Origin: a bacterium
GTDB taxonomy: Bacteria > Patescibacteriota > Minisyncoccia > 1-14-0-10-42-19
Assembly (NCBI GenBank): GCA_030690215.1
Contig: JAUYHD010000029.1
Location: 14,568 to 78,567 of the forward strand
DNA length: 64,000 bases
Reading direction: 5' to 3'
Below, piece after piece: positions 8,585 to 32,236 of the stretch. The position numbers and the translations under genes are program-made. How positions within the stretch are numbered: position 1 is the first letter of the stretch; every line of letters starts with the position of its first letter. The notes beneath the pieces are model-generated. The model worked only from the letters and a program-made list of their open reading frames with translations. It was not told the origin of the DNA and did no database searches.

Positions 8585-8968
8585 CTACGGCGGCGAGGGC
8601 CAGGAATAATCGCTAAACCTTACCGGAAACATTGGCCTCATTAATAAAATATCGGGCCTACTAAAAACAATGCTTTTAGTTTGAACGGGTAAGGGAACAT
8701 ATATCCCTTCTTTCTGTACGACGGTAAATGGGAAGCCGGTCTTCTGCGTATCCAATTGAAGATGCGCGTCTAAAAATTTCTGATGAAATACACCTTTTTC
8801 AAAACTATCCAATCTTATTTGAAGATCTATTTTTGTAGGATCGTCTATCTTCCGATATGCTTTGAAGCGAACCTCCATCTCATTTGCCGGCATAATAAAA
8901 GAACTATATGCATAAAATAAAAACAAGCCTACCAACACCCCACCAATAAAGGGCAAGGACTTTTTCAT
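8585..8968 (-). CDS. hypothetical N-terminally membrane-anchored protein
   Basis: GGAGG RBS; single N-terminal TM; last gene of the VirD4-like operon. Confidence 0.45.
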   Translation of the reverse strand: MKKSLPFIGGVLVGLFLFYAYSSFIMPANEMEVRFKAYRKIDDPTKIDLQIRLDSFEKGVFHQKFLDAHLQLDTQKTGFPFTVVQKEGIYVPLPVQTKSIVFSRPDILLMRPMFPVRFSDYSWPSPP

Positions 8969-9125
8969 TTATGTAACCTCCTATCAAGTTTTTTTTATTT
9001 TATAGAACGCATCCTCATCTGTCAATATATATATAAAAATTTACCCAACGAATACAGATTTTCTTTTCCGGCACAGAGGAAATCGTAAAAAGAAAAATGG
9101 CCATCAATACAAGGGGTGTTCTGCT

Positions 9126-9779
9126 TTATACCCTGAAAACGATAAGCTTATACCCGACAAAGTTCCACACAAGACCAGCGGCAGAACCCGCAACAGCGCC
9201 AATATTCGCCCACCCGTTTGCATCAATGCCGAATTGCGGCCCGATTATATTTACCACAAGAGTCGCGGCTCCCACATTTATTAAAAGGCCTATGATACTG
9301 ACAACAAAAAATTGGATGTATTCTTTGGAGACATCTTTTTTGGGAGCATCTGCGATCTCAAGAGATTCCAGATGAGCCGGAGCTTTTTTGCGGAATGTCC
9401 AAAATTTGTTCCAAAAATAACTATTTATATTCGCAATAATGAATGATGCGCCCTTGAATAACGAAAAATAAATGCCCGCGTTTACCCCGATAAAAAAAAT
9501 AAGCGCGTTTAATACCCCGAAATCAACCGCCGCATTTAAAAATCCCGTTACCGCAAATTTACTTGCTTGATAAAAAACACGAATCCACCGTGAAAGAAAC
9601 CCGCCAAGAAAAAGACCGAATGCCATAAGCACTGGGAGCCCGATAAGCAACATAAATTCTTGATATGGGATCGCAACCTCTATATTGCGTAAGACCGGAA
9701 ATAAAAAAATGCCCGTAAGAAACCCGGAGACGAGCGCGAGCAGATAATCTTTTTTAAAAAATCGCTGTTCCATATACAT
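9126..9779 (-). CDS. GtrA-family membrane protein (polyprenyl-phosphate-sugar translocase-like), apparently duplicated domain
   Basis: small polytopic protein with NINSYFWNKFWTFRKK GtrA signature; start overlaps upstream stop. Confidence 0.55.
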   Translation of the reverse strand: MYMEQRFFKKDYLLALVSGFLTGIFLFPVLRNIEVAIPYQEFMLLIGLPVLMAFGLFLGGFLSRWIRVFYQASKFAVTGFLNAAVDFGVLNALIFFIGVNAGIYFSLFKGASFIIANINSYFWNKFWTFRKKAPAHLESLEIADAPKKDVSKEYIQFFVVSIIGLLINVGAATLVVNIIGPQFGIDANGWANIGAVAGSAAGLVWNFVGYKLIVFRV

Positions 9780-10336
9780 TACAATGAATGGCTGCCGGCT
9801 TCTTTTATTCGTTCAATGTCGCCGCGCAACCCTAAAAGATAACGCTTCATGATAAAAAAGACGACGCCCAACACAACAAAAATAATAATAAACGCAAAAA
9901 GGACATAATAATTTAATAGAAGCGTGCCTTCTCCCAGTATAACCGCAACAATGGAAAGAAAATATAACGGAGAAGGAGAAGCAATCTTTTCCATAAACCG
10001 GAGGGGAATACTATGCCTGAAAGATGCGTATACAACAAAAAGGCCGTAGAGTACGAATGCAATTAATACCCAGGACTCAAACGACGAAAAGATGCTCCGT
10101 TTCATATCAAAAAGAAAAAGTACGCGCATGGCAACCAGACTTACCCAGACGAGAGACATCCCGCTCGTTAACGTAGAAGAAAATCCGAATTGTTCACGTT
10201 TATATTCTCCGAAATATAATTCTACGGCAACCCACACAACCAATAATGGCGCAAGCAAAAGCCATATGGAAAGATCCGCCGTAAGCACCCTGCCGATATT
10301 AAGAAAAGCGTCTGCGAGCGGTGTAATAAATGCCAT
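9779..10336 (-). CDS. hypothetical polytopic membrane protein
   Basis: 4-5 predicted TM helices; translationally coupled to upstream ATPase (stop/start 10336/10338). Confidence 0.45.
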   Translation of the reverse strand: MAFITPLADAFLNIGRVLTADLSIWLLLAPLLVVWVAVELYFGEYKREQFGFSSTLTSGMSLVWVSLVAMRVLFLFDMKRSIFSSFESWVLIAFVLYGLFVVYASFRHSIPLRFMEKIASPSPLYFLSIVAVILGEGTLLLNYYVLFAFIIIFVVLGVVFFIMKRYLLGLRGDIERIKEAGSHSL

Positions 10337-10337
10337 A

Positions 10338-12764
10338 TTATTGGTATCGTCTCGTAATTTCTTCTTCTATTTCTTTTTTGGGACGGCCGTATTTTTGCGA
10401 TGACAACTCTTTAATTGCTTCTGCGGCAACCTCGTTGCTTTCTTTTGGAGGAAGTGTCCTAAGGTTAAATGGTTTTACCGCTTGGCCATCTATAAGCATT
10501 TTAATATACGCCTGAAAATTCTCTATGTTTGTCAAATCATGCGCAGAGAATATCGGCTCAAATTGCTTCTCTACGATTTCCGCATCCTCGCGTCCGATAC
10601 GAAACGAAACTATAGTTCCTACATTTCCAAATACGGATTTTCGGATTTCATCAGACAATTGCCCGATAAACTGATGCGCCATGATAAGATTTAATTTATA
10701 TTTACGCGCTTCAGAAAGAATGGTTGCGATAGAGGGCGTTGTGATGCTCTGAAATTCATCAAGATACAAAAAGAAGTCGCGGCGCTTTTCCTGGCTTGCT
10801 TCACTCGCGCGGGAGAACGCAGCCATAAGAATCTTCCCGACAATCACTAATCCCAAAAGCGCGGAATTCGTCTCCCCCACCCTCCCCTTAGAAAGATTCA
10901 CAAGAAGTATCTTGCCGTTATCCATTACATCCCGCATCTGAAAAGCAGATTGTTGTTGCGCGATAATAGGACGCACGATATCGTTTGAAAGGAATGTGTC
11001 AAATTTAGATGTAATATACGGAATCATGTTTTGGAGCGCGTGCTCTCCTCCTGTTTTCTCCGCGATGTCTTTCCAAAATACATTCACTAAAGGATTTTTT
11101 GAACGGGAAAGTTTATATTCACGAAATGCTTTATCCGAAAGCACGCGGATAATTTCTAAAAGCGTGTTGCCGGATGCGGGGTCTTCTAATACTAAATGCG
11201 TTGCATTCCTAAAATACTGTTCAAACATTGGTCCGCCGGCAAGCTCCATGTTATACAACTTATTGAAAATGGCGAGCAACTCATCAACAACAAACGTTTT
11301 TTGTTCGGGATAGCGCTCATCATATTCAAGAAAATTAAGCCCCATAGGCATCGCGGTATCTCCCGGGTCAAAATAGATAACGTCTCCGACGCGCTTTTCA
11401 GGAATTTGCCCCAATATATCGCTTACCATATCGCCATGCGGATCTATCACGCAAAGACCCTGCCCCGCCTCAATGTCCTGACGGATCATGTGCTTCATGA
11501 ATTCTGATTTTCCGGTTCCGGTTTGTCCAATGATATATGCATGGCGCCTCCGGTCGTCAAGCTTCATACGCACATCGCGACTTTCTCCGCGAAATGTATT
11601 CACCCCCAACCGAATCCCCTCCGTGGGAACATTCGCGGGCGCTGGAGCATCCTTTGACTTGAGCGTTTTTAATTTTGGGGCAGAGACAACACCGTACGGA
11701 AAATGAAAAATAGTCGTAAGCTCACGCGCATTCAAATATACTCCGTGCGCCCCCGAAAATATACGAAATGAGAATCGGTAAAAAAAATCTTGCGCATGCG
11801 ATTTTTTAATGTCTCGCGCAACAAATTGGTTTCCCTGCGGCTCTGAAAATTGTAAAAACGCCGAGGAAAGCTCTTGTATAATGCCTTCGGCTTCTTCTTC
11901 CGTGGGGGCTGACGCAATAAGACGAATGTTTACCTTAAAAATCGGGGAATTCAACTTCTCATTCACCAACTTTATCACTTCTTCATTCACGCGATGTTTT
12001 TGTTCTTCTTTTTTTTGCTTTGCGGCTGGAGACGGCCCGGAAAATGTATGCATTGTTTTTGAAAATTCGTCCATCCATCCTTTTGTAGCACTCGCAGAGA
12101 GCGAATTGCCGCCAAGAAGCATTTCGCGCGCCCGTTTAATTTTTTCTGTTGCACGCGATTCTGCGGTCTCAACAATAATCTGAAGAGCTGCTCCTTCCCC
12201 CTTTTTCTTTAATTTGGAAAACGCATTCGCGATGACCTCCAGCGGGTCTGCTTCTAATTTATCGTAGGTGCGGATGGGAAGCGCAAAATTTCGCGCCGTC
12301 GTGATAATCGCGCCCTTGCTTGCGCCCTCCGCATTAAAAATATTGTAATCATGTTCGGAGACTTCTAATCGTGCATGCGGGAATAGACTTTCCAACTGCT
12401 TTTCAAAAATACGGCTATGCTGTTTTTGTACGCCGACATAAAATGTTATTTCTTCCCCCACATCGGGTAATGCAAGTTCCAATACATAAAAATTTTTTTC
12501 TGTGCCCCACGCTGTTTTTGTTTCGCTTATCGCGCTCATCCCGCTATAAAATTGTTCCATGATGGAAATAAAATTTTTAAATCCGCCCTCGCCAATCGGA
12601 GATTCTTCTTCTGAAAATGTCACTTCATACAGAATAAATTGGAGAGAACGCTCAAATTGTTTGCGCGTACGCCTATGATTTACAAAAAACAATACGGCCG
12701 CAAAAACAATAAGGCCTGCGATACTGTATGGAATATATGCGGTAAAACCGTATATGAGCGCCAT
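10338..12764 (-). CDS. VirD4/TraG/TrwB-like coupling-protein ATPase (FtsK-HerA superfamily) with novel ~360 aa N-terminal domain
   Basis: one N-terminal TM; Walker A IGQTGTGKS, Walker B FFLYLDEFQ, C-terminal AHQxxxQL...GN...F motif typical of T4SS coupling proteins. Confidence 0.65.
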   Translation of the reverse strand: MALIYGFTAYIPYSIAGLIVFAAVLFFVNHRRTRKQFERSLQFILYEVTFSEEESPIGEGGFKNFISIMEQFYSGMSAISETKTAWGTEKNFYVLELALPDVGEEITFYVGVQKQHSRIFEKQLESLFPHARLEVSEHDYNIFNAEGASKGAIITTARNFALPIRTYDKLEADPLEVIANAFSKLKKKGEGAALQIIVETAESRATEKIKRAREMLLGGNSLSASATKGWMDEFSKTMHTFSGPSPAAKQKKEEQKHRVNEEVIKLVNEKLNSPIFKVNIRLIASAPTEEEAEGIIQELSSAFLQFSEPQGNQFVARDIKKSHAQDFFYRFSFRIFSGAHGVYLNARELTTIFHFPYGVVSAPKLKTLKSKDAPAPANVPTEGIRLGVNTFRGESRDVRMKLDDRRRHAYIIGQTGTGKSEFMKHMIRQDIEAGQGLCVIDPHGDMVSDILGQIPEKRVGDVIYFDPGDTAMPMGLNFLEYDERYPEQKTFVVDELLAIFNKLYNMELAGGPMFEQYFRNATHLVLEDPASGNTLLEIIRVLSDKAFREYKLSRSKNPLVNVFWKDIAEKTGGEHALQNMIPYITSKFDTFLSNDIVRPIIAQQQSAFQMRDVMDNGKILLVNLSKGRVGETNSALLGLVIVGKILMAAFSRASEASQEKRRDFFLYLDEFQSITTPSIATILSEARKYKLNLIMAHQFIGQLSDEIRKSVFGNVGTIVSFRIGREDAEIVEKQFEPIFSAHDLTNIENFQAYIKMLIDGQAVKPFNLRTLPPKESNEVAAEAIKELSSQKYGRPKKEIEEEITRRYQ

Positions 12765-12769
12765 GTGAA

Positions 12770-13165
12770 TTATGACGAAGATGCTGAATTATCGTGGGAC
12801 AATAATGTTTCTATAAGATAATCATGAAAATCATCAAGGAGATGGGGGTTAGCAAGACCCCGAGCAACTTTGAGGGCGGACAGTATTCCTTTTTCCTCCG
12901 CGATTGCCATAAGCTCGCCTATTTGTTCGTGATGCTCTTCTTCCTTGATTGCCTTTGTTTTCTTATGCGTGTCATCGTCAGTCAGCGCATACGCCCCCAG
13001 AGGCTTTGGCGCTTTTTCAATGGCTTCGTATAATATTTCTTTTGCCGCTTCCTTACGCGGTGTCGGTTCTCTTCCTTCGCTCTTTGTTTTTGTCTCAAGT
13101 TGGTCCCGGAGCCACGCGATTTCTTCTTGCGGAGAAGAAAACGGCTGTTCTGGTGAAGTGTTCAT
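12770..13165 (-). CDS. hypothetical acidic protein, first gene of the ATPase operon
   Basis: 131 aa, highly charged, no recognisable motif. Confidence 0.4.
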   Translation of the reverse strand: MNTSPEQPFSSPQEEIAWLRDQLETKTKSEGREPTPRKEAAKEILYEAIEKAPKPLGAYALTDDDTHKKTKAIKEEEHHEQIGELMAIAEEKGILSALKVARGLANPHLLDDFHDYLIETLLSHDNSASSS

Positions 13166-13187
13166 ATTTCTATATTATAATAGAACT

Positions 13188-14828
13188 ATGCGAAAAATAC
13201 ATATTGTATTGCTTCTCCTCATCCTCGGGATTGCCGTTTTCCTGCGCGTATTCAATCTCCAAGACATACCGCCCGGCGTCTATCCGGATGTCGCGATGAA
13301 CGGCAACAACGCGCTCTACACGCTTGATACGGGAACTCCGGAGGTATTTTATCCCGAAAACAACGGCAGAGAGGGTCTTTTTATCGTTCTATTGGCGTGG
13401 CTCATGTCCATATTCGGCCAAGATATATGGGTACTGCGGTTGCCGTCCGCATTATTCGGAATTTTGACCGTGTTTGGGACATATCTTCTTACCAAGGAGC
13501 TTTTCCGCGAAACCCATAAGGACAAAGCTGAGGTTATAGCGCTACTTGCGGCTTTTTTTATAGCAACATCATTCTGGCATATTAATTTTTCACGAATAGG
13601 ATTTCGGGCGATTATGGCTCCGTTCTTCCTCACATTCGGATTTTATTTTCTTTGGCTGACGCTTCGGAAAGATATTTCCGCTACCAAAAGAATTCTTGCC
13701 GCAACGTTGGGCGGGGTTTTCTTTGGGGGAGGATTTTATTCTTATATTGCATACCGAGTAATGCCCCTTTTGCTTATTATACCGGCCGTACGCATGTGGC
13801 AGATACAGGGATTTAAAAATATAGGTAAAAAAGGATGTATATGGTGTTCCTTTGCGCTTTTCCTCTTTTTCTCATTCGTTGCGGTGGTGCCGCTTGGAAT
13901 GTATTTCTTAGAACATCCGGCTGATTTTTTGGGACGCACCGCGCAAATTTCTGTCTTTGATACCCCATCCCCCCTCAAAACCCTCACAACAAATACGATC
14001 CAGACGCTCGGAATGTTCTGGTTTTCGGGAGATACAAATTGGCGACATAACTTTTCGGGAGCGCCTCAACTTTGGTTTCCTGTCGGAATATTATTCGCGC
14101 TCGGCATCCTAGTGCACGTCTCATCTCTCCGCAAAAAAAAATATTGGCATACATCGCTCTTCCTTTTGGGGTGGATTGCGCTTGGATTGCTGCCGGTCAT
14201 TTTTTCAAACGAGGGGATCCCGCATGCGCTTCGCGCGCTTCTTGTAATCCCGCCTGTCATGATTCTTGCCGCGCATGCATTCTCGTCAATTATCCATGGG
14301 ACGGCGGACTGGCTTGCCACAAAAGAACACTACGCCCCGCAATCAAAAAAACAGCTTAAAAGAATCCAAAAAGAACTACTCGTACTGCTTTTTGTCTTTC
14401 TTGTTGCGGGAGCATCACAAGCATATAACCAATATTTTATCCGTTGGGCATACCACCCCGAAACATACAATGCCTCAAGCGGTAATTATACGGGGCTCGG
14501 CATCTGGCTTGCGCAACAACCGAATGAGATAAAAAAATACATTATTATCAATGCCGGTGGAACGCCCGTACACATTCCCGGAAGCACAGAATCCATTCCT
14601 ATGCCCTCCCAAACGATTATGTTCCTCACTGACAGCTGGAGCGCCGATAAACAAAAAGAGAAAAATATTGTATATCTTCTCCCCGAAAAAATAGAATTGC
14701 TTACCTGCAGCGATCACTGCATTGTCGCAATGCTTGAACGCGATGAAATGCTTCGCTTTCGTATCCGCGAACATATCCCTGAACTTCATCTGTCCCCGGA
14801 GACCGGCTACCTTATTCTCCAAAAATAA
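13188..14828 (+). CDS. GT-C fold glycosyltransferase (ArnT/PMT family, GT39/83-like)
   Basis: MRKIHIVLLLLILGIAVFLRVFNLQDIPPGVYPDVAMNGNNA N-terminus and polytopic topology typical of ArnT/PMT; ORF track start 12945 likely an upstream extension. Confidence 0.75.
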   Translation: MRKIHIVLLLLILGIAVFLRVFNLQDIPPGVYPDVAMNGNNALYTLDTGTPEVFYPENNGREGLFIVLLAWLMSIFGQDIWVLRLPSALFGILTVFGTYLLTKELFRETHKDKAEVIALLAAFFIATSFWHINFSRIGFRAIMAPFFLTFGFYFLWLTLRKDISATKRILAATLGGVFFGGGFYSYIAYRVMPLLLIIPAVRMWQIQGFKNIGKKGCIWCSFALFLFFSFVAVVPLGMYFLEHPADFLGRTAQISVFDTPSPLKTLTTNTIQTLGMFWFSGDTNWRHNFSGAPQLWFPVGILFALGILVHVSSLRKKKYWHTSLFLLGWIALGLLPVIFSNEGIPHALRALLVIPPVMILAAHAFSSIIHGTADWLATKEHYAPQSKKQLKRIQKELLVLLFVFLVAGASQAYNQYFIRWAYHPETYNASSGNYTGLGIWLAQQPNEIKKYIIINAGGTPVHIPGSTESIPMPSQTIMFLTDSWSADKQKEKNIVYLLPEKIELLTCSDHCIVAMLERDEMLRFRIREHIPELHLSPETGYLILQK

Positions 14829-14830
14829 AT

Positions 14831-16681
14831 ATGGTACATAAACGCCCCGCAAACACTATAGCTCTTATCTTGCTTGCGCTATTCTTCGTTCTCATGCTTT
14901 TTTCGGCACTTCCGGAATCGGCAATCATGGACGAACTCGCCCACATCCCTGCATCCTACTCGTATGTAGCGAAACAGGATTATCGTCTCAACCCCGAACA
15001 TCCTCCGCTTGCAAAAGATCTTGCGGGCATCCCGCTTCTTTTTCTCAACCTTAATTTTCCAATCGATGTCTCCGCGTGGACTACCGATATAAACGGACAA
15101 TGGACAATGGGGTCTATCTTTTTATATGAGGCAGAAAATAATCCTGACTCTATTCTTTTTTGGGCGCGTTTCCCGCTCATGCTTTTAGCGCTTCTTTTCG
15201 GGTGGCTTTTGTATCGCTGGGCATCAGGCGCGTATGGGGGAAAGGTCGGGCTTCTTTCGTTATTCTTTTTTACGACATCGCCAACTATTATCGCGCATGC
15301 GCGCTATGTGACAACCGATCTTGCGGCGGCCTTTGCGTTCTTTATAGGGCTCGCCTCTTTTTTTACCTATCTTCTCTCTCCCTCCAAAAAAACGCTTGCT
15401 CTTGCGGGTATCGCATTCGGTATTGCGCAACTTCTTAAATTTTCGCTTATTCTTCTCATACCCATATATGTTGTCTTGGGAACACTATGGGTGTTCTTGT
15501 TCCATCTTGATCATATGCGCGCATTGCCCTCCTTCTCAAAACGACTTTTTCATTTTCTACACCACGAAATAAAACTCATTGGCAATCTTGTTCTCATTGG
15601 TCTCATCGGCGTAATCATCATATATGCTGTATACGCATTCCATGTTTGGAATTATCCCGAAGACATGCAAATTCGAGACATGACATATAACTTAGAAACC
15701 GTGCGCTTCCAGCCTATCGCGGAGACCCTCATCACTCTCTCCGACTTCCCCGTGCTTCGCCCGCTTACGCAATACGCGCACGGTCTTTTAATGGTTATTA
15801 ACCGAGGCACACACGGAAACACTACATACTTTTTAGGAGAGGTTACCAATAACGGGTGGTTCCATTATTTCCCAACAGCATATCTTCTTAAAGAACAGCT
15901 TGCTCTACACATACTTACGCTTTTAGCCATCATTCTTTTTCTTACAGCAATCGTCAGAAGTCATGAAAAAACAATCTTCTCTCTTCTTGAGTGGATGCGG
16001 GACAATTTCGTGATCACCGGCAGCATATTTTTTATTGTTGTATATTGGGCTAGCTCTGTCGCAAGCCCGCTTAACATAGGGGTGCGCCATGTTTTACCTA
16101 CATTCCCGTTTATTTTTCTCATCATATCCCGTGAAATTATCCGCTGGACGCATCACGTCACGTTTACCGATCCCCGAACGCTTAAAGAATGGCTCATCTC
16201 TCTCTACGAACTTGCGATAAAGCGCATCCCTAAATTCATTTTTATTGCAGCCACACTTGTCTGGATGGGGATTACGACACTTCTTGCGTTCCCCCATTAT
16301 CTTCCTTACTACAATGTACTTGGCGGCGGGACAGAGCATGGTTATCAATATATTACCGATTCAAATTATGATTGGGGGCAAGATTTAAAACGCCTCAAAA
16401 CATTTGTTGACGAAAATAGTATTGAGCATATCCGGCTTAATTACTTCGGCGGCGGATCGCCCCGCTATTATTTGGGGAATACATACGAAGAATGGTATTC
16501 GGCGAAAGGAGAGCCTGAAGAAGGATGGTTTGCGGTATCCGCAACGCTCCGGCAAGGATCGTGGGGAACGCCCATCCGCGGATGGGAAACAAAACCCGAA
16601 GACAGCTATAGCTGGCTTCGCGATAAAGAACCGGTCGCGCGTGCGGGGTATTCAATATTTATCTATAATCTTGCCCCGTAG
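14831..16681 (+). CDS. GT-C fold glycosyltransferase (phospholipid carrier-dependent, PMT_2-like)
   Basis: polytopic; ALPESAIMDELAHIPASYSY / HPPLAKDLAGIPL loop motifs typical of GT-C mannosyltransferase-like enzymes. Confidence 0.7.
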   Translation: MVHKRPANTIALILLALFFVLMLFSALPESAIMDELAHIPASYSYVAKQDYRLNPEHPPLAKDLAGIPLLFLNLNFPIDVSAWTTDINGQWTMGSIFLYEAENNPDSILFWARFPLMLLALLFGWLLYRWASGAYGGKVGLLSLFFFTTSPTIIAHARYVTTDLAAAFAFFIGLASFFTYLLSPSKKTLALAGIAFGIAQLLKFSLILLIPIYVVLGTLWVFLFHLDHMRALPSFSKRLFHFLHHEIKLIGNLVLIGLIGVIIIYAVYAFHVWNYPEDMQIRDMTYNLETVRFQPIAETLITLSDFPVLRPLTQYAHGLLMVINRGTHGNTTYFLGEVTNNGWFHYFPTAYLLKEQLALHILTLLAIILFLTAIVRSHEKTIFSLLEWMRDNFVITGSIFFIVVYWASSVASPLNIGVRHVLPTFPFIFLIISREIIRWTHHVTFTDPRTLKEWLISLYELAIKRIPKFIFIAATLVWMGITTLLAFPHYLPYYNVLGGGTEHGYQYITDSNYDWGQDLKRLKTFVDENSIEHIRLNYFGGGSPRYYLGNTYEEWYSAKGEPEEGWFAVSATLRQGSWGTPIRGWETKPEDSYSWLRDKEPVARAGYSIFIYNLAP

Positions 16682-17903: not shown

Positions 17904-18482
17904 TCATCCAAGCTTAAAATATTTCTTAAGATGAAATTCATTATCAAGCGAATCGGCAATAATAAAACGGGTGTAGGGACGTGCATAAAAAAATTCAATT
18001 ACAAAATCAACTTCATCCTGACATTCAAATGGATGTACAAATACACTTTTTTGATATTCAAAAAATCCGGCTCGTATCAATGCGCGCCGCAAGGCGTCCC
18101 GAATCACACGTGATTTCTCAGGTATATCAAATAACACTATGCGCCACTTCCCATCCCATTTTTCCATGGGAGCAACACGGATGGCATCAATTTTATATCT
18201 GAGCGCTTTTTCTTCCCCCTTTTGCGTAAGCACGAGAGTATATGTTCCGTCTTTATTACGTACCGTTTTGATTAGCCGAGAATTATAAAGACTTTTAATG
18301 GCGCGATGAAGAGCTTTTTGATCAACTTCCTTCCACCAATGAGCAACACCCCTTACAATGTTAAAATATTTTTTTGGGTTATGATTCAAGCCCAACAACG
18401 CTCCTCCTAAAAGCAAAATAAGAACTTTTTGCGAATTTGGCCCAAGATTAAAACCTCGTTTTGTTTTTTTGCGATATTCCAT
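17904..18482 (-). CDS. winged-HTH + Cas2/VapD-fold (PaaX-like architecture) putative transcriptional regulator
   Basis: C-terminal KWRIVLFDIPEKSRVIRDALRRALIRAGFFEYQKSVFV matches Cas2/PaaX_C pattern; N-terminal wHTH-like; ORF track uses GTG at 18500, first ATG at 18482. Confidence 0.5.
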   Translation of the reverse strand: MEYRKKTKRGFNLGPNSQKVLILLLGGALLGLNHNPKKYFNIVRGVAHWWKEVDQKALHRAIKSLYNSRLIKTVRNKDGTYTLVLTQKGEEKALRYKIDAIRVAPMEKWDGKWRIVLFDIPEKSRVIRDALRRALIRAGFFEYQKSVFVHPFECQDEVDFVIEFFYARPYTRFIIADSLDNEFHLKKYFKLG

Positions 18483-18502
18483 AATTAAATAGAAATACAC
18501 GA

Positions 18503-18904: not shown

Positions 18905-19867
18905 ATGGCAAAAATCGTTGTTGGAGTACTGCGCGGAGGCCCTTCCTCTGAATATGACATTTCGCTCAAAACTGGCGAAAATGTTTTGCGTCATCTTCCC
19001 CAAGAAAAATACAAACCCTTGGATATTTTTATTTCAAAAGCAGGCGAATGGCACTTAAAAGGCCTTGTCCGCCCGCCCGAAAAAATACTACAGCATATTG
19101 ATGTCGCCTTTAACGCTATGCACGGTGAATATGGAGAAGATGGAACAGTACAAAAAATTTTCCGTGATCACGGGATCCCCCACACAGGATCGGAGGTTAT
19201 GGCATCCCGCTTTACCATAAAAAAAGATACAGCAAAAAATCTACTGGAACGCGCGGGATTAAATGTACTCCCAGGAATAACCGTGCGACCCGATGACGAT
19301 ACACAAACGACACTCACGCTCGTGCATAAAAAAATGGCGCCTCCGTGGGTAGTTAAACCGAACGGAAAAGGATCGTCCGTGGGAGTTTCGATAGTAAGGA
19401 CTTTGCCGAATTTGGAAAAAGCAATCTCTGAAGTATTCCGCATTGACTCCTTAGTACTCGTAGAAAAATATATAAAAGGCAGGGAGGCAACATGCGGTGT
19501 CCTTGAAAATTTCCGGAATGAAAAATATTATGCGCTTCCGGTTGTGGAGATAATCCCGCCACAAGGAAAGTTTTTTGACTATCAGTCAAAATATGACGGC
19601 TCAACCAAAGAGGTTTGCCCCGGAAGATTCAGCAAACGCGAAGCAACACACCTCCAGGACGCAGCAATACGTGCGCATAAAGCGCTTGGATGCAGGCATT
19701 ATTCTCGAACCGATATGATTCTTGCAAACGATACGGTATGGGTTCTTGAAACAAACACCCTCCCGGGGCTTACTTCAGAATCTCTACTCCCTAAATCCGC
19801 AGAAGCGATAGGGCTTTCTTTCCCGGGCTTATTAGACCACTTGGTCGCTCTCGCACTTAAGAAATAA
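18905..19867 (+). CDS. ddl: D-alanine--D-alanine ligase
   Basis: ATP-grasp Ddl N-terminus MAKIVVGVLRGGPSSEYDISL and C-terminal motifs. Confidence 0.9.
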   Translation: MAKIVVGVLRGGPSSEYDISLKTGENVLRHLPQEKYKPLDIFISKAGEWHLKGLVRPPEKILQHIDVAFNAMHGEYGEDGTVQKIFRDHGIPHTGSEVMASRFTIKKDTAKNLLERAGLNVLPGITVRPDDDTQTTLTLVHKKMAPPWVVKPNGKGSSVGVSIVRTLPNLEKAISEVFRIDSLVLVEKYIKGREATCGVLENFRNEKYYALPVVEIIPPQGKFFDYQSKYDGSTKEVCPGRFSKREATHLQDAAIRAHKALGCRHYSRTDMILANDTVWVLETNTLPGLTSESLLPKSAEAIGLSFPGLLDHLVALALKK

Positions 19868-21128
19868 TAGCGCCCCCAAGCACCTGCCTGCCGGCAGGCA
19901 GGTTTCCCTCCTCCATTGAATAGAAAACTATTGATTGGCCGGGTGTTACTGCGCGTTGCGGATCTTTAAATTGAATTAAGAATTTTGAATTAGGAATTAA
20001 GGTTTCTTCCGTTATTCTTGATTCATAATTCATAATTCGTGCTACTTGTAGCGGTTGGCGATATCGTATTCGCACCTCACATTCTAAAGGCAATTCCGGA
20101 ACAACTCCGGATATCCAATGCGCGTCGCGAACGCGCAATTCCGTTTTAAATAATGCCTCTTCATATGGACCTTCGGCAACCGTAATCGTATTGATCGAAA
20201 CATCTTTATCGGTTACATAATATGGGATGCCCCCACCCACCCCTATGCCGTGACGCTGGCCGATGGTGTAAAATTCTGCCCCTTCATGCGTGCCTATTTC
20301 TTTTCCGCCGGTAGTCAGAATTTTCCCGGAACGCTTCGGCAATACTTCCTGCATAAAAGAACGGAAATCGATATTACCAACAAAACAAAGTCCCTGGGAA
20401 TCTTTTTTTGCATGTGTCGGAAGTCCAAACTTTTTTGCCATAGCGCGGACCTCTCTTTTTTCATATCCCCCAATCGGAAATAATGCGTGCTTCAATTGGT
20501 CTTGCGTTAGCGTCCATAAAAAATAACTTTGATCTTTGTTTATATCTCTCGCAACATGTAGCATATAGCGTGCGGCAGATTTCTCATTTTGAGTTTTGAA
20601 CTTTGCGCTTTGAGCTTTCCTTACATAATGTCCAGTTGCAATATAGTCTGCCCCCAAACTACGCGCCTTATTTAAAAAAACTCCGAATTTAATTTCTTTG
20701 TTGCACATGACATCTGGATTTGGCGTAAGCCCCGCTTTATATTCACGCACCATATAATCAAACACTGATGCGCGGTATTCTTTTTCGAGATCAAATACAT
20801 AAAATGGAATATGCAATTTTTCTGCGACTCGTCGGGCATCCTCCGCGTCTTGTGCGGATGTACAATACGCCCCCTCTGACCAGCACTTCATATAGGCGCC
20901 GATTACTTCGTATTCCCCACTTTGAACCAACAAAGCAGCCGCAACGGACGAATCAACCCCGCCGGACATCGCTACGAAGACCTTTTTACCCCGAGTAGTA
21001 TTGAGGGGCTTGCCCCGAGTGCTATCGGGGGGCTTGCCCCGAGCCCCGCCAGAAGCGGGATCGAGGGGCTTGCCCCGAGCCCCGCCAGAAGCGGGATCGA
21101 GGGGTTTGTTGTTTTGATTAATTGACAT
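19857..21128 (-). CDS. mnmA: tRNA-specific 2-thiouridylase MnmA with Pro/Gly-rich repeat N-terminal extension
   Basis: PP-loop KVFVAMSGGVDSSVAA, catalytic Cys regions; N-terminal ~47 aa encoded by tandem repeats. Confidence 0.88.
   Translation of the reverse strand: MSINQNNKPLDPASGGARGKPLDPASGGARGKPPDSTRGKPLNTTRGKKVFVAMSGGVDSSVAAALLVQSGEYEVIGAYMKCWSEGAYCTSAQDAEDARRVAEKLHIPFYVFDLEKEYRASVFDYMVREYKAGLTPNPDVMCNKEIKFGVFLNKARSLGADYIATGHYVRKAQSAKFKTQNEKSAARYMLHVARDINKDQSYFLWTLTQDQLKHALFPIGGYEKREVRAMAKKFGLPTHAKKDSQGLCFVGNIDFRSFMQEVLPKRSGKILTTGGKEIGTHEGAEFYTIGQRHGIGVGGGIPYYVTDKDVSINTITVAEGPYEEALFKTELRVRDAHWISGVVPELPLECEVRIRYRQPLQVARIMNYESRITEETLIPNSKFLIQFKDPQRAVTPGQSIVFYSMEEGNLPAGRQVLGGAIIS
20990..21112. 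repeat. GC-rich tandem repeat, 36-bp unit x2 full plus partial copies, in-frame in mnmA 5' end
   Basis: gccccgccagaagcgggatcgaggggcttgccccga at 21041-21076 and 21077-21112; partial copies 21001-21040. Confidence 0.85.
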
Positions 21129-23887: not shown

Positions 23888-26461
23888 TTATTTTTCTTCA
23901 ATCGGAAGACATCCAAGAGTAGTTTCAACATACATATTTATGTACGTGACATTTGAAATATCGTCTTCAAGACGCTGTTTCCCGTGGCCGTAAAACCCTG
24001 ACTCTATTTCTATAATACGGCCTTCTTTAGAAAGAATACGCGCAAACGCAACCCCAAAATCAGTTACTTTTGATTTGCTGTCTTCAAATGGCGTATGGGT
24101 GCAAATCGTAGGGCATTGCAATGAAAGCCGCTGTCCCAACTCCACCTCATAATGCTGGACAGATGTCGCCTGATGCCAATTTGCAGGAACAACAACATGG
24201 GCTTTTCTATATTTCGCAAGAGCGCGTTCAGAAGGAATACTGATAGTTTCGGTTCGCGCTGTCCCCGGATGTGTTGATTTGAAATTCAAACCGGATATGG
24301 GGCTCGTATAATGAATTTTCTGCGAAAGATTGTCTTTTATTATCTTAGAGCTGACAACCTTATGAAGCCCCGCGAAATTATACCCAAGCTTTTCAATACA
24401 CGAAGCAATTTCTCGCACAAGATATGCTTTCAGCGAATGCGTGAATTCAGACAAAGGAGATGTGCCTTCTCTTTTCTTCCAGTCATCATGGTTCCCAGAA
24501 ACATACAAAAATGTAACCAGGGCGGAAAGAATCGCTTGTCTGAGAGCCTCGGGAGAATGGTCCGGAGCTTTCGCATGCCACTCTTCAAATCGCGCGCGAA
24601 ATACCTCCATAACAACCTTGCCAACTATATGCGATGCTATCTTTTCTTGCTGGCTATCATTTGCTCCTGCTAAAATCTCTCCCCGCGCGAGTAACCCATG
24701 CTGCATTCCCTGGGTAAAATCACCGGAACCTACTAATAGGTTAGCATTGCGCCGCAAAATAAGAGCTGGCACTTCATGCACAAAAAATTCTCCGTCGCTA
24801 TAGACCGCACCCCCGTGCAAACAACCAAATCCGACAATGCTATCTTCTTTGAAATTGCTTTCGTCTTTAAACGGATACTCCACTTTTTTCTGAAGCACAT
24901 ACGGCGCAAAATCATATTCATCAGAATGTTCATCATGAACGATTTTGAACTTTGATTGCTTCATGTTCTCAATTTCTTTTCTTATCTCTTCGCGAGTCGC
25001 TTTATTCCCCATGCTATGGAGATGATATTCAATCATCCCGAGACGCTGTGGTCCCTTTTTAACCTGTTCAAAAATAAGCGCGCCTAATTCCGAAAGATCT
25101 TTTGGTGTTTTAACATGAGAACGCTCTTCCTTTACCAAATCCTTAAACGACCGATTTATGGTTGAAAACGTCCCATCAGGAAGGTACTTGAAAAAGCCTA
25201 CGCCGATCTGGTTCTCTGACGAGCGCGTTTCCATGATATTGTGAAGGGCCGGAGCAGTAACCCATGGCCGTTTTGCCTCTCCTTGAGGACGCTCAACACT
25301 TGCGGCAAAACACCCAACAAGAAAAACATCCGGCAAAATATGAGACGAACGCTTCTCTACATCCTGCAATTCGCGCTGCGGAGCTGTCGAATAATACCGT
25401 GAACGCCACGATGCCTTGCTTGGAACAACCGGCAAAATAGTTTTATCAATATATTTTACATACAAAGGATTCTGTTCTGCCGTTTTGTTATTCCAAAACA
25501 CGATATCTTCCTTGCGGATTTCAGCAAGCCGTTTTGCTATCTGCTCCCCTATCTCGCCATCATAGGCAGGACTTGTTACGATATAGAGCTTTGCGAAACT
25601 GCCGTCCGGCTTTTTAATTTGCGGGATGACATTGGCAAGTTCGCTTGCGGCATCTCCATAAAAGTCGCCCGCATCAAGGAGTTTCTCTTTTTCCCTCTCT
25701 TGCAGACTCAAGTCGCGCCAAAATTCCTGCTGCTTGAGTTCCTGCAGGCGATCTTTTAAATACAGTTTTAACTGTGCTTTAAGGGCCCGCTTATCTACAA
25801 GACCACCGACCAATATATTAAAAACGGTGTTCTTGCGTTGGAACTCCTGCATGCCCCGCTTTACAAGAGCGTCGCGATATCCGTCGCTCCCATAATCAAT
25901 ACGCGAACAATATCCGATGTAGCATGCGCCATCTTCAGCCCATCCTTTTTCAATCTCAAGAACAGAAGGATTGATTTTATTCTTTTCGTGTTTCTTTTCG
26001 CGGTCTTTCCGATATTGTTCCGCATTAACCTGGGAAGAGCCCGGATCTTTTTTTACACCCCGAACGCCAAGCTGTTTGCGAATATCGTAACGCTGTTGCG
26101 GACTTAACGACCTCAACGCCGGGAACCTCTTTACCTGCTCCTCAAAAGACAGCGAAAACGCCTCCGAAAGAGCGTCATGGTCCTCTTCTTTCGGGAAAAA
26201 CGTATAAAGCAAATTCTTTTTCCGGCCAAGATTTTCCCATGCTTTCTGCAGGGTATCTCCTTTTTTCTGCCTACGCAACCTGCTAAGAATCGCTCCAAAA
26301 GAAAAATCTTTAAGCGCCTTCTCTTTCTCAACTTCTTTCTGCAGATCTTCCTTGATAACGCAACGGCTTAAAGCGTTCCCAAGCGCGTCAACATTCGCCT
26401 TTCCTTCCTTTGTTTTCACGTCCCATGTTCTCGACATGTCTGCCTCCCTGTTGAAGTCCAA
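23888..26461 (-). CDS. large hypothetical protein (857 aa) with degenerate C-terminal calcineurin-like/Mre11-SbcD-like metallophosphoesterase motifs
   Basis: GFGCLHGG (motif I with Cys for Asp), VGSGDFTQG (II), VSGNHDD (III, GNHD as in SbcD/Mre11); N-terminal ~500 aa charged, no match recognised. Confidence 0.45.
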   Translation of the reverse strand: MDFNREADMSRTWDVKTKEGKANVDALGNALSRCVIKEDLQKEVEKEKALKDFSFGAILSRLRRQKKGDTLQKAWENLGRKKNLLYTFFPKEEDHDALSEAFSLSFEEQVKRFPALRSLSPQQRYDIRKQLGVRGVKKDPGSSQVNAEQYRKDREKKHEKNKINPSVLEIEKGWAEDGACYIGYCSRIDYGSDGYRDALVKRGMQEFQRKNTVFNILVGGLVDKRALKAQLKLYLKDRLQELKQQEFWRDLSLQEREKEKLLDAGDFYGDAASELANVIPQIKKPDGSFAKLYIVTSPAYDGEIGEQIAKRLAEIRKEDIVFWNNKTAEQNPLYVKYIDKTILPVVPSKASWRSRYYSTAPQRELQDVEKRSSHILPDVFLVGCFAASVERPQGEAKRPWVTAPALHNIMETRSSENQIGVGFFKYLPDGTFSTINRSFKDLVKEERSHVKTPKDLSELGALIFEQVKKGPQRLGMIEYHLHSMGNKATREEIRKEIENMKQSKFKIVHDEHSDEYDFAPYVLQKKVEYPFKDESNFKEDSIVGFGCLHGGAVYSDGEFFVHEVPALILRRNANLLVGSGDFTQGMQHGLLARGEILAGANDSQQEKIASHIVGKVVMEVFRARFEEWHAKAPDHSPEALRQAILSALVTFLYVSGNHDDWKKREGTSPLSEFTHSLKAYLVREIASCIEKLGYNFAGLHKVVSSKIIKDNLSQKIHYTSPISGLNFKSTHPGTARTETISIPSERALAKYRKAHVVVPANWHQATSVQHYEVELGQRLSLQCPTICTHTPFEDSKSKVTDFGVAFARILSKEGRIIEIESGFYGHGKQRLEDDISNVTYINMYVETTLGCLPIEEK

Positions 26462-32020: not shown

Positions 32021-32150
32021 GTATAAAACCTCCTTGTAAAATAGCTTATTTGAATATGATAGTATCATAAAAAATAAATTTTGTATATAATATCTACCCT
32101 TCTGTGTTGCTCACCCTCCCAAATTGTGTATTAAAAAATAGGCGCTCAAA

Positions 32151-32222: not shown

Positions 32223-32236
32223 TGCGTTATTTGTTT

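What the first reader, a model, noticed from the sequence alone, without database searches (positions are those of the whole stretch)
8585..16681. VirD4/TraG-like coupling ATPase operon with GtrA-like flippase and tiny membrane partners, divergent from two GT-C glycosyltransferases: putative envelope export/glycosylation module
The operon on the minus strand runs: 131-aa acidic protein, 808-aa ATPase, 185-aa polytopic protein (start overlaps the ATPase stop), GtrA-like protein (start overlaps again), then a 127-aa anchored protein. The ATPase has a single TM, an unknown ~360-aa N-domain and a T4SS coupling-protein-type motor (Walker A/B, AHQ..QL...GN...F). No VirB-type channel, relaxase or pilin genes are present. 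Immediately divergent are two tandem GT-C enzymes (ArnT/PMT-like) that use polyprenyl-phosphate sugars on the outer face. A GtrA-family translocase is the usual supplier of such lipid-linked sugars. The combination of a coupling-protein ATPase with a glycosylation set is not a standard operon.
Basis: partly seen in the sequence, partly recalled or inferred. Interest (0 to 1): 0.55.

Follow-up and report, generated by a model that had tools for sequence, protein, structure and literature searches.

The report
Orphan VirB4/VirD4-hybrid ATPase beside glycosylation genes
The genes are real, but the "coupling ATPase" is a split copy of an uncharacterised secretion-type motor protein found across one class of ultra-small bacteria, and it sits next to the sugar-transfer genes only in this lineage, so the two are probably not one machine.

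Summary
All seven ORFs exist as described, on a housekeeping chromosome segment of a Candidatus Niyogibacteria-like (Patescibacteria, class Paceibacteria) genome.

Three points are new.
- The ATPase's "unknown" N-domain is Pfam DUF8128. Its predicted fold matches only the N-terminal domain of VirB4/TrwK. The C-terminal half is TrwB/VirD4-like, with an all-alpha insert. The protein is therefore a VirB4/VirD4 hybrid.
- The 131-aa acidic protein is the detached N-terminal domain of the same protein. In 59 of 80 related loci it is fused and the protein has no TM helix. In this clade the gene is split and a TM helix has been gained.
- The 185-aa and 127-aa proteins are lineage-specific.

The link to glycosylation holds only within this clade. 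GtrA lies within 4 kb in 10 of 21 loci of this clade and in 0 of 59 loci of the other clade. In the reverse test, only 11 of 65 GtrA relatives have the ATPase upstream, 47 of 80 have dnaX downstream, and GT-C pairs can abut GtrA directly.

Best reading: an orphan T4SS-family translocation motor placed next to a separate GtrA/GT-C glycosylation set. A functional coupling is not excluded (about 0.15-0.2).

The parts
12770..13165 (-). 131-aa acidic, all-helical cytoplasmic protein. It is the detached N-terminal domain of the ATPase.
   Evidence: It aligns to residues 6-128 of the 930-aa fused relative P0023 (44% identity, E 6e-23). It is homologous to the N-terminus of, or to the gene directly upstream of, the ATPase in 68 of 80 loci. 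No Pfam, NCBIfam, PHROG or PADLOC hit.
10338..12764 (-). 808-aa ATPase: TM helix, then a VirB4-NTD-like domain (DUF8128), then a TrwB/VirD4-like P-loop domain with an all-alpha insert.
   Evidence: Pfam, precomputed PF26449, AlphaFold2 models, Foldseek against PDB. More than 7,800 homologues.
12681..12752 (-). N-terminal hydrophobic helix of the ATPase (residues about 5-28), a membrane anchor specific to this clade.
   Evidence: The model shows one long helix over residues 2-41. Clade-B relatives reach a maximum hydropathy of 2.2-3.5 here; fused clade-A relatives stay at or below 1.4 and have no such helix.
11577..12647 (-). DUF8128 domain (residues about 40-396), with a VirB4/TrwK N-terminal-domain fold.
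   Evidence: Model pLDDT 77, pTM 0.77. The top 14 PDB hits are all TrwK/VirB4 (E 1e-7 to 2e-4, probability 1.00); the next hit has E 9e-3 and is unrelated. BFVD: Bacillus phage G gp156 at E 1e-18, and a "type IV transporter component" at E 1e-4. 1,158 clusters at 50% identity carry the domain.
10341..11576 (-). P-loop NBD (residues 397-808). Walker A lies at 11505-11528, Walker B at 10749-10778, and the all-alpha insert (residues 487-615) at 10920-11306.
   Evidence: Invariant motifs. Secondary structure of the model. TrwB hits with TMt 0.55-0.63 and 16-17% identity, plus DotL, Cagbeta and HerA. The sequence profile hits TrwB at E 7e-8.
9779..10336 (-). 185-aa polytopic membrane protein (about 5 TM helices), lineage-specific.
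   Evidence: Only two database clusters match: itself and the CG10 Niyogibacteria protein at 73% identity. One further homologue lies in Portnoybacteria locus L038 at the same position (E 1e-39). It is absent from the other GtrA-linked loci.
9126..9779 (-). 217-aa GtrA-family protein: two N-terminal TM helices followed by the 4-TM GtrA domain.
   Evidence: PF04138, 66.8 bits against a cut-off of 26.1. Alignment A3 of 13 orthologues. Synteny statistics.
8585..8968 (-). 127-aa N-terminally anchored protein, probably a separate transcription unit and not conserved.
   Evidence: No family hits. No homologue in the first 80 ATPase loci or the 80 GtrA loci. Its own promoter-like site at 9025-8997 and terminator-like hairpin at 8577-8556. 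Replaced by a Leu/Phe-tRNA protein transferase in L081.
13185..14828 (+). GT-C glycosyltransferase 1 (547 aa, PMT/ArnT-like), divergent from the p131 gene across a 19-bp gap.
   Evidence: PF02366, 27.9 bits against a cut-off of 22.7. Orthologues lie upstream of the ATPase in 7 loci, and directly upstream of GtrA with no ATPase in L090, L104 and L105.
14831..16681 (+). GT-C glycosyltransferase 2 (616 aa, PMT_2), in tandem with GT-C1.
   Evidence: PF13231, 31.5 bits against a cut-off of 26.1. An MDELAH motif lies after the first TM helix (read from the translation). Orthologues in 8 loci.

Best explanation
The region holds two separate things placed side by side.

**(1) One split protein.** The 131-aa and 808-aa genes together encode one protein of a large, vertically inherited, chromosomal family of class Paceibacteria. 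Its layout is:
- an acidic helical N-terminal domain;
- a TM helix (this clade only);
- a VirB4-type N-terminal domain (Pfam DUF8128);
- a TrwB/VirD4-type P-loop domain with an all-alpha insert.

By analogy with VirB4, TrwB and HerA, I infer that it assembles into a ring-shaped ATP-driven motor at the cytoplasmic face of the membrane and threads or extracts a polymer (DNA or an unfolded or membrane-embedded protein). It would act as an "orphan", away from any channel genes. It may work with the chromosomal Patescibacteria T4SS encoded elsewhere, or it may have been exapted to another task.

In this clade a TM helix arose between the acidic domain and DUF8128, and the gene is split at that point. 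I infer that the split keeps the acidic domain in the cytoplasm.

**(2) A glycosylation set.** The GtrA-like protein and the two GT-C enzymes form an ordinary polyprenyl-phosphate-sugar surface-glycosylation set.

Their adjacency to the ATPase is a lineage-specific piece of synteny, not a dedicated export/glycosylation machine. The 185-aa and 127-aa proteins are lineage-specific additions.

**Shown:** the domain architecture, the split versus fusion, the clade structure and the synteny statistics.
**Inferred:** the oligomeric state, the substrate and the independence of the two sets.
For: **Architecture.**
- The N-domain model matches only TrwK/VirB4 (14 top hits, E down to 1e-7).
- The full-length model matches TrwK over about 900 columns (E 8e-12), then TrwB with TMt 0.55-0.63, then DotL, HerA and Cagbeta.
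- Pfam T4CP families are passed.
- The catalytic motifs are invariant.

**Split protein.** p131 aligns to residues 6-128 of fused 900-970-aa relatives.

**Two clades.**
- 59 fused loci have no TM helix and sit in a SecY-Adk-Map -> ATPase -> Ndk context.
- 21 split loci plus the window have a TM helix.

**Not a mobile element.**
- The flanks are housekeeping genes.
- GC content is even.
- No tRNA or T4SS genes are present.

**Independence from glycosylation.**
- No GtrA, GT-C or GT2 gene lies within 10 kb in the 59 clade-A loci.
- Only 11 of 65 GtrA relatives have the ATPase upstream.
- dnaX lies downstream of GtrA in 47 of 80 loci.
- GT-C pairs abut GtrA directly in L090, L104 and L105.

**Literature.** There are 5,713 VirD4-type T4CP homologues in 2,918 Patescibacteria genomes, and only 148 lie near virB4. 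The authors write that exaptation "cannot be ruled out" (PMC12102498).
Against: - Within the TM-anchored clade, GtrA follows the ATPase in 10 of 21 loci (gaps from -3 to about 160 bp in most; about 1.5 and 3 kb in two, L003 and L012).
- GT-C lies upstream in 8 of those loci, and a GtrB-like GT2 lies downstream in 2.
- The six-gene cassette survives in three Niyogibacteria whose outer flanks differ.
- The TM anchor and the glycosylation neighbours appear in the same clade.
- No substrate, partner or oligomer was tested.
- The structural claims rest on AlphaFold2 models with pLDDT 77 built from a 22-sequence alignment, and on Foldseek TM-scores of only 0.36-0.45 for the N-domain.
- I could not verify that the paper's "T4CP" hits are this family.
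Confidence: 0.6

Rival explanations
1. In this clade the membrane-anchored ATPase, the GtrA-like protein and the GT-C (and GT2) enzymes form one envelope module. One version: the VirB4-like motor extracts or exports a membrane-embedded or secreted substrate (a pilin-like or surface protein) that the GT-C enzymes glycosylate with sugars supplied through GtrA.
For: - GtrA lies within 4 kb in 10 of 21 clade-B loci and 0 of 59 clade-A loci. GT-C is found in 8 of 21 versus 0 of 59, and GT2 in 2 of 21 versus 0 of 59.
- Gene junctions are tight.
- The cassette is kept while the outer flanks change.
- The TM anchor was gained in the same clade.
- A LamG-type pilin-like gene lies just upstream in L024 and L062.
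- From established knowledge, not tested here: VirB4 is thought to dislocate pilin from the membrane.
Against: - Reverse test: only 11 of 65 GtrA relatives have the ATPase upstream.
- The same GtrA gene is even more tightly linked to dnaX (47 of 80), so tight synteny here does not imply shared function.
- GT-C pairs abut GtrA with no ATPase between them.
- Clade-B loci without GtrA keep the TM anchor (L062, L066, L069, L061, L042).
- The counts are not phylogenetically independent.
- I know of no precedent for an FtsK/HerA-class motor in lipid-linked glycan pathways.
Confidence: 0.18
2. It is a DNA translocase. It would be either an FtsK/SpoIIIE-like chromosome-segregation motor or the cytoplasmic motor of DNA uptake in these nucleotide-auxotrophic cells, unrelated to any T4SS.
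For: - It belongs to the FtsK/HerA/TraG superfamily.
- Its distribution is class-wide, apparently in single-copy housekeeping contexts.
- Distant homologues in Bacillus phages lie next to a nicking replication initiator and ParA/partition genes, and one is annotated "DNA helicase or translocase".
- There are weak NCBIfam hits to the archaeal DNA-import ATPases CedB and CedD.
Against: - No FtsK_SpoIIIE Pfam hit and no gamma/winged-helix domain.
- The N-domain matches VirB4, not FtsK.
- Paceibacteria genomes list separate TcpA/FtsK-type "t4cp2" hits in the paper's Table S3.
- The phage homologues are only 20-23% identical.
- No comEC or competence gene was seen among the conserved neighbours.
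Confidence: 0.17
3. It is the canonical coupling protein of a conjugative or mobilisable element integrated here.
For: Pfam T4CP families are passed. NCBI names it [quoted passage not shown].
Against: - No relaxase, VirB, integrase or tRNA gene in the 64 kb.
- GC content is even.
- All NCBIfam equivalog cut-offs are missed by a wide margin (for example 47.8 bits against 366).
- The extra VirB4-like domain is not a T4CP feature.
- The family tree tracks lineages, and the contexts are housekeeping.
Confidence: 0.03

Closest known systems
VirB4 (TrwK of plasmid R388; PDB 7O41-7O43, 8RTB, 8RTD)
   Same: It has the same two-domain layout: an N-terminal alpha/beta domain followed by a RecA-like ATPase. 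The N-domain fold matches only VirB4 in the PDB. The full-length model aligns over about 900 columns.
   Different: - No sequence-level similarity: the profile search finds no VirB4 chain even at E 10, and TIGR00929 scores 24 bits against a cut-off of 643.
- No neighbouring VirB3, VirB6 or VirB8 genes.
- It carries an extra acidic N-terminal domain.
- The C-terminal half is closer to T4CPs (16-17% identity) than to VirB4 (10-11%).
Type IV coupling proteins (TrwB, VirD4, TraD, DotL)
   Same: - P-loop NBD with an all-alpha insert.
- The Pfam TrwB_AAD_bind and T4SS-DNA_transf gathering scores are passed.
- TrwB structural match with TMt 0.55-0.63.
- An N-terminal TM helix in this clade.
   Different: - A 360-aa VirB4-like domain separates the TM helix from the NBD.
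- Most family members have no TM helix at all.
- No relaxase or Mpf genes nearby.
- The gene is chromosomal, vertically inherited and class-wide.
"Orphan" VirD4-type T4CP homologues of Patescibacteria (Quinonero-Coronel et al. 2025, PMC12102498)
   Same: These are described as abundant (5,713 in 2,918 genomes) and mostly far from virB4, with a possible exaptation noted. Each Paceibacteria genome in their Table S3 lists one t4cp1 hit at high profile coverage.
   Different: I could not map their accession numbers to this family. In the passages I read, the paper does not describe the DUF8128/VirB4-like N-domain, the split versus fusion, or the GtrA synteny.
PHROG 5156 / Bacillus phage G gp156, CP-51 gp91, 0105phi7-2 gp32
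   Same: They are homologous over both the DUF8128 and ATPase parts. phrog_5156 matches at E 2e-84 over residues 104-805. tblastn gives 20-23% identity over up to 92% of the protein. The fold match has E 1e-18.
   Different: They are phage-encoded. In the two loci I inspected (CP-51, 0105phi7-2) they lie next to replication or partition genes, a nicking initiator in CP-51 only. No function is known for them either.
GtrA / GtrB / Gtr(type) three-component glucosylation systems (Shigella phages) and mycobacterial GtrA-like Rv3789 (from my own knowledge)
   Same: A GtrA-family small membrane protein is encoded next to GT-C-fold transferases. A GT2 (GtrB-like) gene is present in related loci L024 and L062.
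   Different: - No GtrB in the window.
- The GtrA protein has two extra N-terminal TM helices.
- There are two GT-C paralogues.
- The acceptor is unknown.

Membership tests
Type IV coupling protein (VirD4/TraG/TraD/TrwB) | P-loop NBD of the TraG/VirD4 type that passes the curated Pfam thresholds | tested here: met
   PF10412 scores 41.6 bits (cut-off 20.5) and PF02534 scores 37.2 (cut-off 20.1). Walker A, Walker B and the R/K and Q motifs are invariant.
Type IV coupling protein (VirD4/TraG/TraD/TrwB) | All-alpha domain inserted in the NBD | tested here: met
   The model is all-helical over residues 487-615. TrwB superposition gives TMt 0.55-0.63. This is prediction-level evidence only.
Type IV coupling protein (VirD4/TraG/TraD/TrwB) | N-terminal TM domain directly preceding the NBD | tested here: not met
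   There is one TM helix, but it is followed by a 360-aa DUF8128 domain. The 59 fused relatives among the 80 loci have no TM helix.
Type IV coupling protein (VirD4/TraG/TraD/TrwB) | Encoded with a relaxase and/or mating-pair-formation genes | tested here: not met
   None among the scanned ORFs of the 64-kb window. The conserved neighbours in 80 loci are housekeeping genes. The loci themselves were not scanned with T4SS HMMs.
Type IV coupling protein (VirD4/TraG/TraD/TrwB) | Reaches an NCBIfam equivalog or subfamily cut-off | tested here: not met
   Best hit is TIGR03743 at 47.8 bits against 366. conju_CD1115 scores 39 against 250.
VirB4 | VirB4-type N-terminal domain fold | tested here: met
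   Foldseek of the N-domain model: the top 14 PDB hits are all TrwK/VirB4, E 1e-7 to 2e-4, probability 1.00, TMq 0.36-0.45. No TrwB, HerA or FtsK hits, so the match is not to the ATPase fold.
VirB4 | Sequence membership (TIGR00929 VirB4_CagE, or a PDB VirB4 sequence match) | tested here: not met
   TIGR00929 scores 24 bits against 643.1. No VirB4 chain appears in the profile search even at E 10.
VirB4 | Neighbouring VirB3, VirB6, VirB8 or TrsD genes | tested here: not met
   No such families in the window. Whether the N-terminal TM helix is VirB3-like was not testable.
FtsK/SpoIIIE | FtsK_SpoIIIE motor domain, gamma winged-helix domain and a polytopic N-terminal domain | tested here: not met
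   No FtsK_SpoIIIE Pfam or NCBIfam hit at E<=0.01. No FtsK chain among the 50 best-listed structural hits. Only a single TM helix.
HerA / defence-system ATPases (mad8, HerA-Sir2) | HAS-barrel N-domain and a partner effector (NurA, Sir2 or similar) | tested here: not met
   The PADLOC mad8 and HerA hits cover only the P-loop half (residues 403-754). The N-domain is VirB4-like. There are no effector neighbours.
Pfam DUF8128 (PF26449) | Match to the family model | tested here: met
   A precomputed PF26449 hit is listed for the identical protein P0001 and for all 120 listed relatives. The name DUF8128 is shown. The local Pfam copy lacks this model.
GtrA family (PF04138) | Four-TM GtrA domain above the gathering score | tested here: met
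   66.8 bits against 26.1, covering residues 74-215. The motif NSYFWNKFWTF...NF.GYK..VF is conserved in 13 orthologues.
GtrA family (PF04138) | Flips polyprenyl-phosphate sugars | not testable with these tools
   This is a biochemical property. It is assumed for the family and was not examined here.
GT-C glycosyltransferases (PMT / PMT_2 / ArnT-like) | Polytopic protein that passes the Pfam gathering score | tested here: met
   GT-C1: PF02366 scores 27.9 against 22.7. GT-C2: PF13231 scores 31.5 against 26.1. Each has 8-9 hydrophobic helices.

The most novel reading that the evidence does not exclude
In the TM-anchored clade, the VirB4/VirD4-hybrid motor has been recruited to the membrane to work with GtrA and the GT-C (and GT2) enzymes. 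It would be an ATP-driven extractor or exporter of a glycosylated surface or pilin-like protein or polymer. That would make it the first FtsK/HerA-class motor tied to a polyprenyl-phosphate glycosylation pathway. The family as a whole would be a free-standing VirB4-VirD4 intermediate that works without a T4SS channel.
Probability: 0.15. Interest if true: 0.8.

Novelty: new variant of a known kind. Interest (0 to 1): 0.42.

Why it matters
Patescibacteria make up a large share of bacterial diversity and depend on hosts, yet how they move macromolecules across their envelope is largely unknown. Almost every genome is reported to carry "orphan" coupling-protein homologues of unknown role (PMC12102498).

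This analysis shows that one such family, class-wide in Paceibacteria and listed in Pfam only as DUF8128, joins a VirB4-type N-terminal domain to a VirD4/TrwB-type motor. It exists in soluble-fused and membrane-anchored-split forms.
- This gives a concrete structural hypothesis for how the protein docks and what it might replace.
- It bears on how VirB4 and VirD4 are related.
- It names a small set of testable partners: the acidic domain, GtrA and the chromosomal T4SS.

It also warns that tight, conserved gene adjacency in these compact genomes need not mean shared function. The example here is GtrA next to dnaX.

Tried and rejected
- **Mobile element or conjugative T4CP.** Rejected. There are no relaxase, VirB, integrase or tRNA genes, the GC content is even, and the flanks are housekeeping.
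- **RNA features.** None found: no Rfam family and no tRNA gene.
- **Defence system (PADLOC).** Only P-loop-level hits to mad8 and HerA, and no defence context.
Not found; the N-domain is VirB4-like.
- **p185 and p127 as conserved partners.** Rejected.
- **p131 domain in other architectures.** The search returned only close ~130-aa relatives.
- **Sequence-level link to VirB4.** None, even at E 10.
- **Literature on DUF8128 or PF26449, and on GtrA in CPR.** Nothing found.
- **Literature on FtsK in CPR.** Nothing useful for Paceibacteria.
- **Mapping the paper's Table S3 T4CP accessions to this family.** Failed. The stored supplement is cut, the accessions searched (OGZ29277, OGZ30652, OGZ31514, PIR69410) are absent from it, and the look-up for the Nomurabacteria protein returned other accessions.

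Full report
**1. What is in the sequence**

The seven ORFs of the finding are all present.
- Minus strand: a 131-aa acidic protein (12770-13165), an 808-aa ATPase (10338-12764), a 185-aa polytopic protein (9779-10336), a 217-aa GtrA-family protein (9126-9779) and a 127-aa N-terminally anchored protein (8585-8968).
- Plus strand, divergent across a 19-bp gap: two tandem GT-C enzymes (13185-14828 and 14831-16681).

Pfam confirms GtrA_DPMS_TM, PMT/PMT_2, and TrwB_AAD_bind, T4SS-DNA_transf and DUF87 for the ATPase. NCBIfam gives only sub-threshold hits to TraD, VirD4-like, VirB4, CedB/CedD and HerA.

The junctions are TAA-T-ATG between the ATPase and p185, and TAATG between p185 and GtrA. One of the two claimed overlaps is therefore a 1-nt spacer.

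The 127-aa gene has its own strong promoter-like site and is followed by a terminator-like hairpin.

The rest of the 64-kb window is ordinary chromosome: GlmS, LeuRS, Ddl, MnmA, MltG, F-type ATP synthase, MacB/HlyD, UppP, P-type ATPase and redox proteins. It has even GC content, no tRNA, no Rfam match, and no T4SS, relaxase or competence family among the ORFs scanned.

The identical ATPase is in NCBI as a MAG protein named [quoted passage not shown]. The nearest named relatives are Candidatus Niyogibacteria.

**2. The ATPase is a member of a very large family**

The word-indexed search scored 7,854 homologues at E<=1e-5, and the top 120 are all at least 51% identical. Names from the sources cover Niyogi-, Ryan-, Terry-, Taga-, Sung-, Giovannoni-, Nomura-, Taylor-, Yonath-, Zambryski-, Campbell-, Kaiser-, Adler-, Portnoy- and Moranbacteria. 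All are Parcubacteria, which is GTDB class Paceibacteria.

All relatives carry a precomputed Pfam hit to PF26449, whose name is DUF8128. Searched alone against 1.84 billion representatives, the N-domain finds 1,158 clusters at 50% identity. In full-length hits it always lies N-terminal of the ATPase. No paper in the library mentions DUF8128 or PF26449.

**3. The N-domain is VirB4-like and the C-terminal half is TrwB-like**

- An AlphaFold2 model of residues 30-396 has pLDDT 77 and pTM 0.77. Searched with Foldseek against the PDB, its top 14 hits are all TrwK/VirB4 of the R388 T4SS (E 1e-7 to 2e-4, probability 1.00, TMq 0.36-0.45). The next hit has E 9e-3 and is unrelated.
- No TrwB, HerA or FtsK chain appears in that list, so the match is to the VirB4 N-terminal domain and not to the shared RecA-like fold.
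- The full-length model (pLDDT 77, pTM 0.54) matches TrwK over about 900 columns (E 8e-12, 10-11% identity). It then matches TrwB (E 4e-9, TMt 0.55-0.63, 16-17% identity), DotL, HerA and Cagbeta.
- Residues 487-615 are all-helical, like the all-alpha domain of TrwB.
- At the sequence level only TrwB and DotL are found, through the Walker A region (E 7e-8). VirB4 is not found even at E 10.

The protein therefore has the VirB4 two-domain layout with a T4CP-like motor. The catalytic motifs are invariant across 22 relatives.

**4. The 131-aa protein is part of the ATPase**

It aligns to residues 6-128 of the 930-aa relative P0023 (44% identity, E 6e-23). In 68 of 80 genomic loci, a homologous segment is either the N-terminus of the ATPase ORF or the gene directly upstream.

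A neighbour-joining tree of the ATPase separates two clades.
- **Clade A (59 loci).** Proteins are 900-970 aa, the acidic domain is fused, and there is no hydrophobic helix (maximum hydropathy at or below 1.4; sequences). They are predicted to be soluble.
- **Clade B (the window plus 21 loci).** Proteins are about 790-840 aa with a strongly hydrophobic N-terminal helix, and the acidic domain is a separate upstream gene in most.

I infer that splitting the gene keeps the acidic domain cytoplasmic. A single TM helix inserted between two cytoplasmic domains would otherwise force one of them outside.

**5. Neighbourhoods, forward direction**

In clade A the gene lies in a housekeeping run: SecY, Adk, a UMP-kinase-like gene, Cys-rich Zn-ribbon proteins and Map upstream; then Ndk, a small TM protein, an MBL/RNase-J-like protein, a LOG-like protein and L20/L35 downstream. 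No GtrA, GT-C or GT2 gene lies within the 10-kb flanks of any clade-A locus.

In clade B:
- GtrA lies within 4 kb downstream in 10 of 21 loci; gaps run from -3 to about 160 bp in most, with two at about 1.5 and 3 kb.
- The GT-C pair lies divergently upstream in 8 loci.
- A GtrB-like GT2 follows in 2 loci.
- dnaX follows GtrA in 5 loci.

The full cassette recurs in the 83%-identical CG10 Niyogibacteria and in the complete genome CP066691.1 (58% identical), with different outer flanks.

The 185-aa protein occurs only in the CG10 genome and in one Portnoybacteria locus. The 127-aa protein has no homologue in any of the 160 loci searched and is replaced by a Leu/Phe-tRNA protein transferase in CG10.

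**6. Neighbourhoods, reverse direction**

This was the decisive test. I took the 80 closest metagenomic relatives of the window's GtrA-like protein (36-49% identical, same length).
- Of the 65 loci with at least 600 bp of upstream sequence, only 11 have the ATPase upstream.
- dnaX lies directly downstream in 47 of 80.
- The upstream gene is otherwise CysRS, triose-phosphate isomerase or something else.
- In L090, L104 and L105 the GT-C pair abuts GtrA directly, with no ATPase between them.

The conserved block is therefore GtrA-dnaX, two genes with no plausible functional link. GtrA and GT-C can be neighbours on their own. The ATPase is an insert, or a neighbour, in one lineage only.

This does not exclude a lineage-specific functional recruitment. 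It does remove the main argument for one, which was tight conserved adjacency.

**7. Other relatives**

PHROG 5156 (function unknown) matches residues 104-805 at E 2e-84. tblastn finds 48 phage records, 46 of them Bacillus phages, at 20-23% identity over up to 92% of the protein.
- CP-51 gp91 lies next to a "replication initiation by nicking" protein and a partition protein.
- 0105phi7-2 gp32 is annotated "DNA helicase or translocase", with a curator's HHpred match to TrwK, and lies next to ParA and RepB-primase genes.
- The BFVD fold search of the N-domain finds phage G gp156 (E 1e-18), its neighbour gp155, and a "component of type IV transporter system".

These hint at a DNA-handling ancestry, but they are distant.

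**8. Literature**

Quinonero-Coronel et al. 2025 (PMC12102498) report the following.
- VirB4 is present in 2,417 of 3,035 Patescibacteria assemblies, in clusters with VirB3, VirB6, TrsD and VirB8-like genes.
- There are 5,713 VirD4-type T4CP homologues in 2,918 genomes, and only 148 lie near virB4.

Their Table S3 lists, for each Paceibacteria genome I looked up, one t4cp1 hit at 87-98% profile coverage far from virB4. This includes assemblies scored VirB4-negative. The family studied here is very probably among these, but I could not verify the accession mapping. MAG incompleteness also limits the VirB4-negative argument.

**9. Mechanism: what is shown and what is inferred**

Shown:
- The protein has intact ATPase motifs.
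- It combines a VirB4-type N-terminal domain with a TrwB-type NBD and all-alpha insert.
- It has a detachable acidic N-terminal domain.
- It is membrane-anchored in this clade and soluble in most others.
- It is chromosomal, is inherited with the lineages, and is not encoded with channel or relaxase genes.

Inferred (from the biology of VirB4, TrwB and HerA, which are ring-forming translocases):
- It forms a ring at the cytoplasmic face of the membrane and uses ATP to thread or extract a polymer.
- In clade A, membrane or partner docking would go through DUF8128, as the VirB4 N-terminal domain docks on VirB3/VirB8.
- In clade B, its own TM helix does part of this job.

The substrate (DNA or protein) and whether the motor works with the T4SS encoded elsewhere are open. 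The GtrA and GT-C genes most likely form an independent surface-glycosylation set.

My confidence in this combined reading is about 0.6. The coupled-module reading gets about 0.18, a pure DNA translocase unrelated to any T4SS about 0.17, and a mobile-element T4CP about 0.03.

**10. Verdict**

The thing is a new variant of a known kind: a T4SS-superfamily ATPase with a hybrid VirB4/VirD4 architecture, already catalogued as DUF8128 and as "T4CP homologue" but not characterised.

Interest is moderate (0.42). The glycosylation coupling that made the finding attractive is weak. The ATPase family itself is a widespread, structurally definable unknown in a poorly understood part of the bacterial tree.

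Noticed in passing
L087-L166 (for example L090:6001-7688, L104:4483-6292); also L046:12322-14010: The GtrA-like gene is followed directly by dnaX (DNA polymerase III gamma/tau) in 47 of 80 metagenomic loci. This adjacency of two functionally unrelated genes is more conserved than any other link seen here.
   Followed up: partly
window 23888-26461 (-): An 857-aa ORF (TTG start) has no Pfam or PHROG hit. It is a large uncharacterised protein between MltG and an aminotransferase.
   Followed up: no
window 19857-21128 (-): MnmA carries an N-terminal low-complexity repeat (GKPLDPASGGAR two or three times, then degenerate copies) before the PP-loop domain.
   Followed up: no
window 30194-34048 (-): Two tandem paralogues of M3 oligoendopeptidase F (624 aa and 603 aa).
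   Followed up: no
window 17904-18500 (-); L001:7940-8506, L016:6821-7375, L029:6116-6649: A 198-aa protein has a PaaX central Cas2-like domain. Homologues recur within about 3 kb of the ATPase in three loci from both clades.
   Followed up: no
L048, L021, L076, L036 (for example L036:6505-8250): Clade-A loci carry one to three tandem copies of a Cys-rich ~570-aa protein with many CxxC pairs, between a UMP-kinase-like gene and map.
   Followed up: no
L024:94-1410 and L062:2-1195; L024:4465-5627: A type-IV-pilin-like protein with a LamG-like C-terminal part lies just upstream of the p131-like gene. In L024 the ATPase is followed by GtrA and then a GtrB-like GT2.
   Followed up: partly
L085 (Bacillus phage CP-51 gp91) and L086 (phage 0105phi7-2 gp32); phage G gp155/gp156: Distant homologues covering both DUF8128 and the ATPase occur in 46 Bacillus phage records. 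In the two loci inspected they lie next to a nicking replication initiator (CP-51) and ParA/partition genes. Phage G has two adjacent paralogues.
   Followed up: partly
PMC12102498 Table S3 (supplement 2): Paceibacteria assemblies scored VirB4-negative still list t4cp1 hits at high profile coverage (for example KKP79862.1, KKP80131.1). I could not test whether these are DUF8128 proteins.
   Followed up: partly
window 13166-13184: Only 19 bp separate the divergent start codons of the p131 gene and GT-C1. Both promoters must therefore lie inside the neighbouring coding sequences. One promoter-like site, at 13006-13034 (+), lies inside the p131 gene.
   Followed up: no
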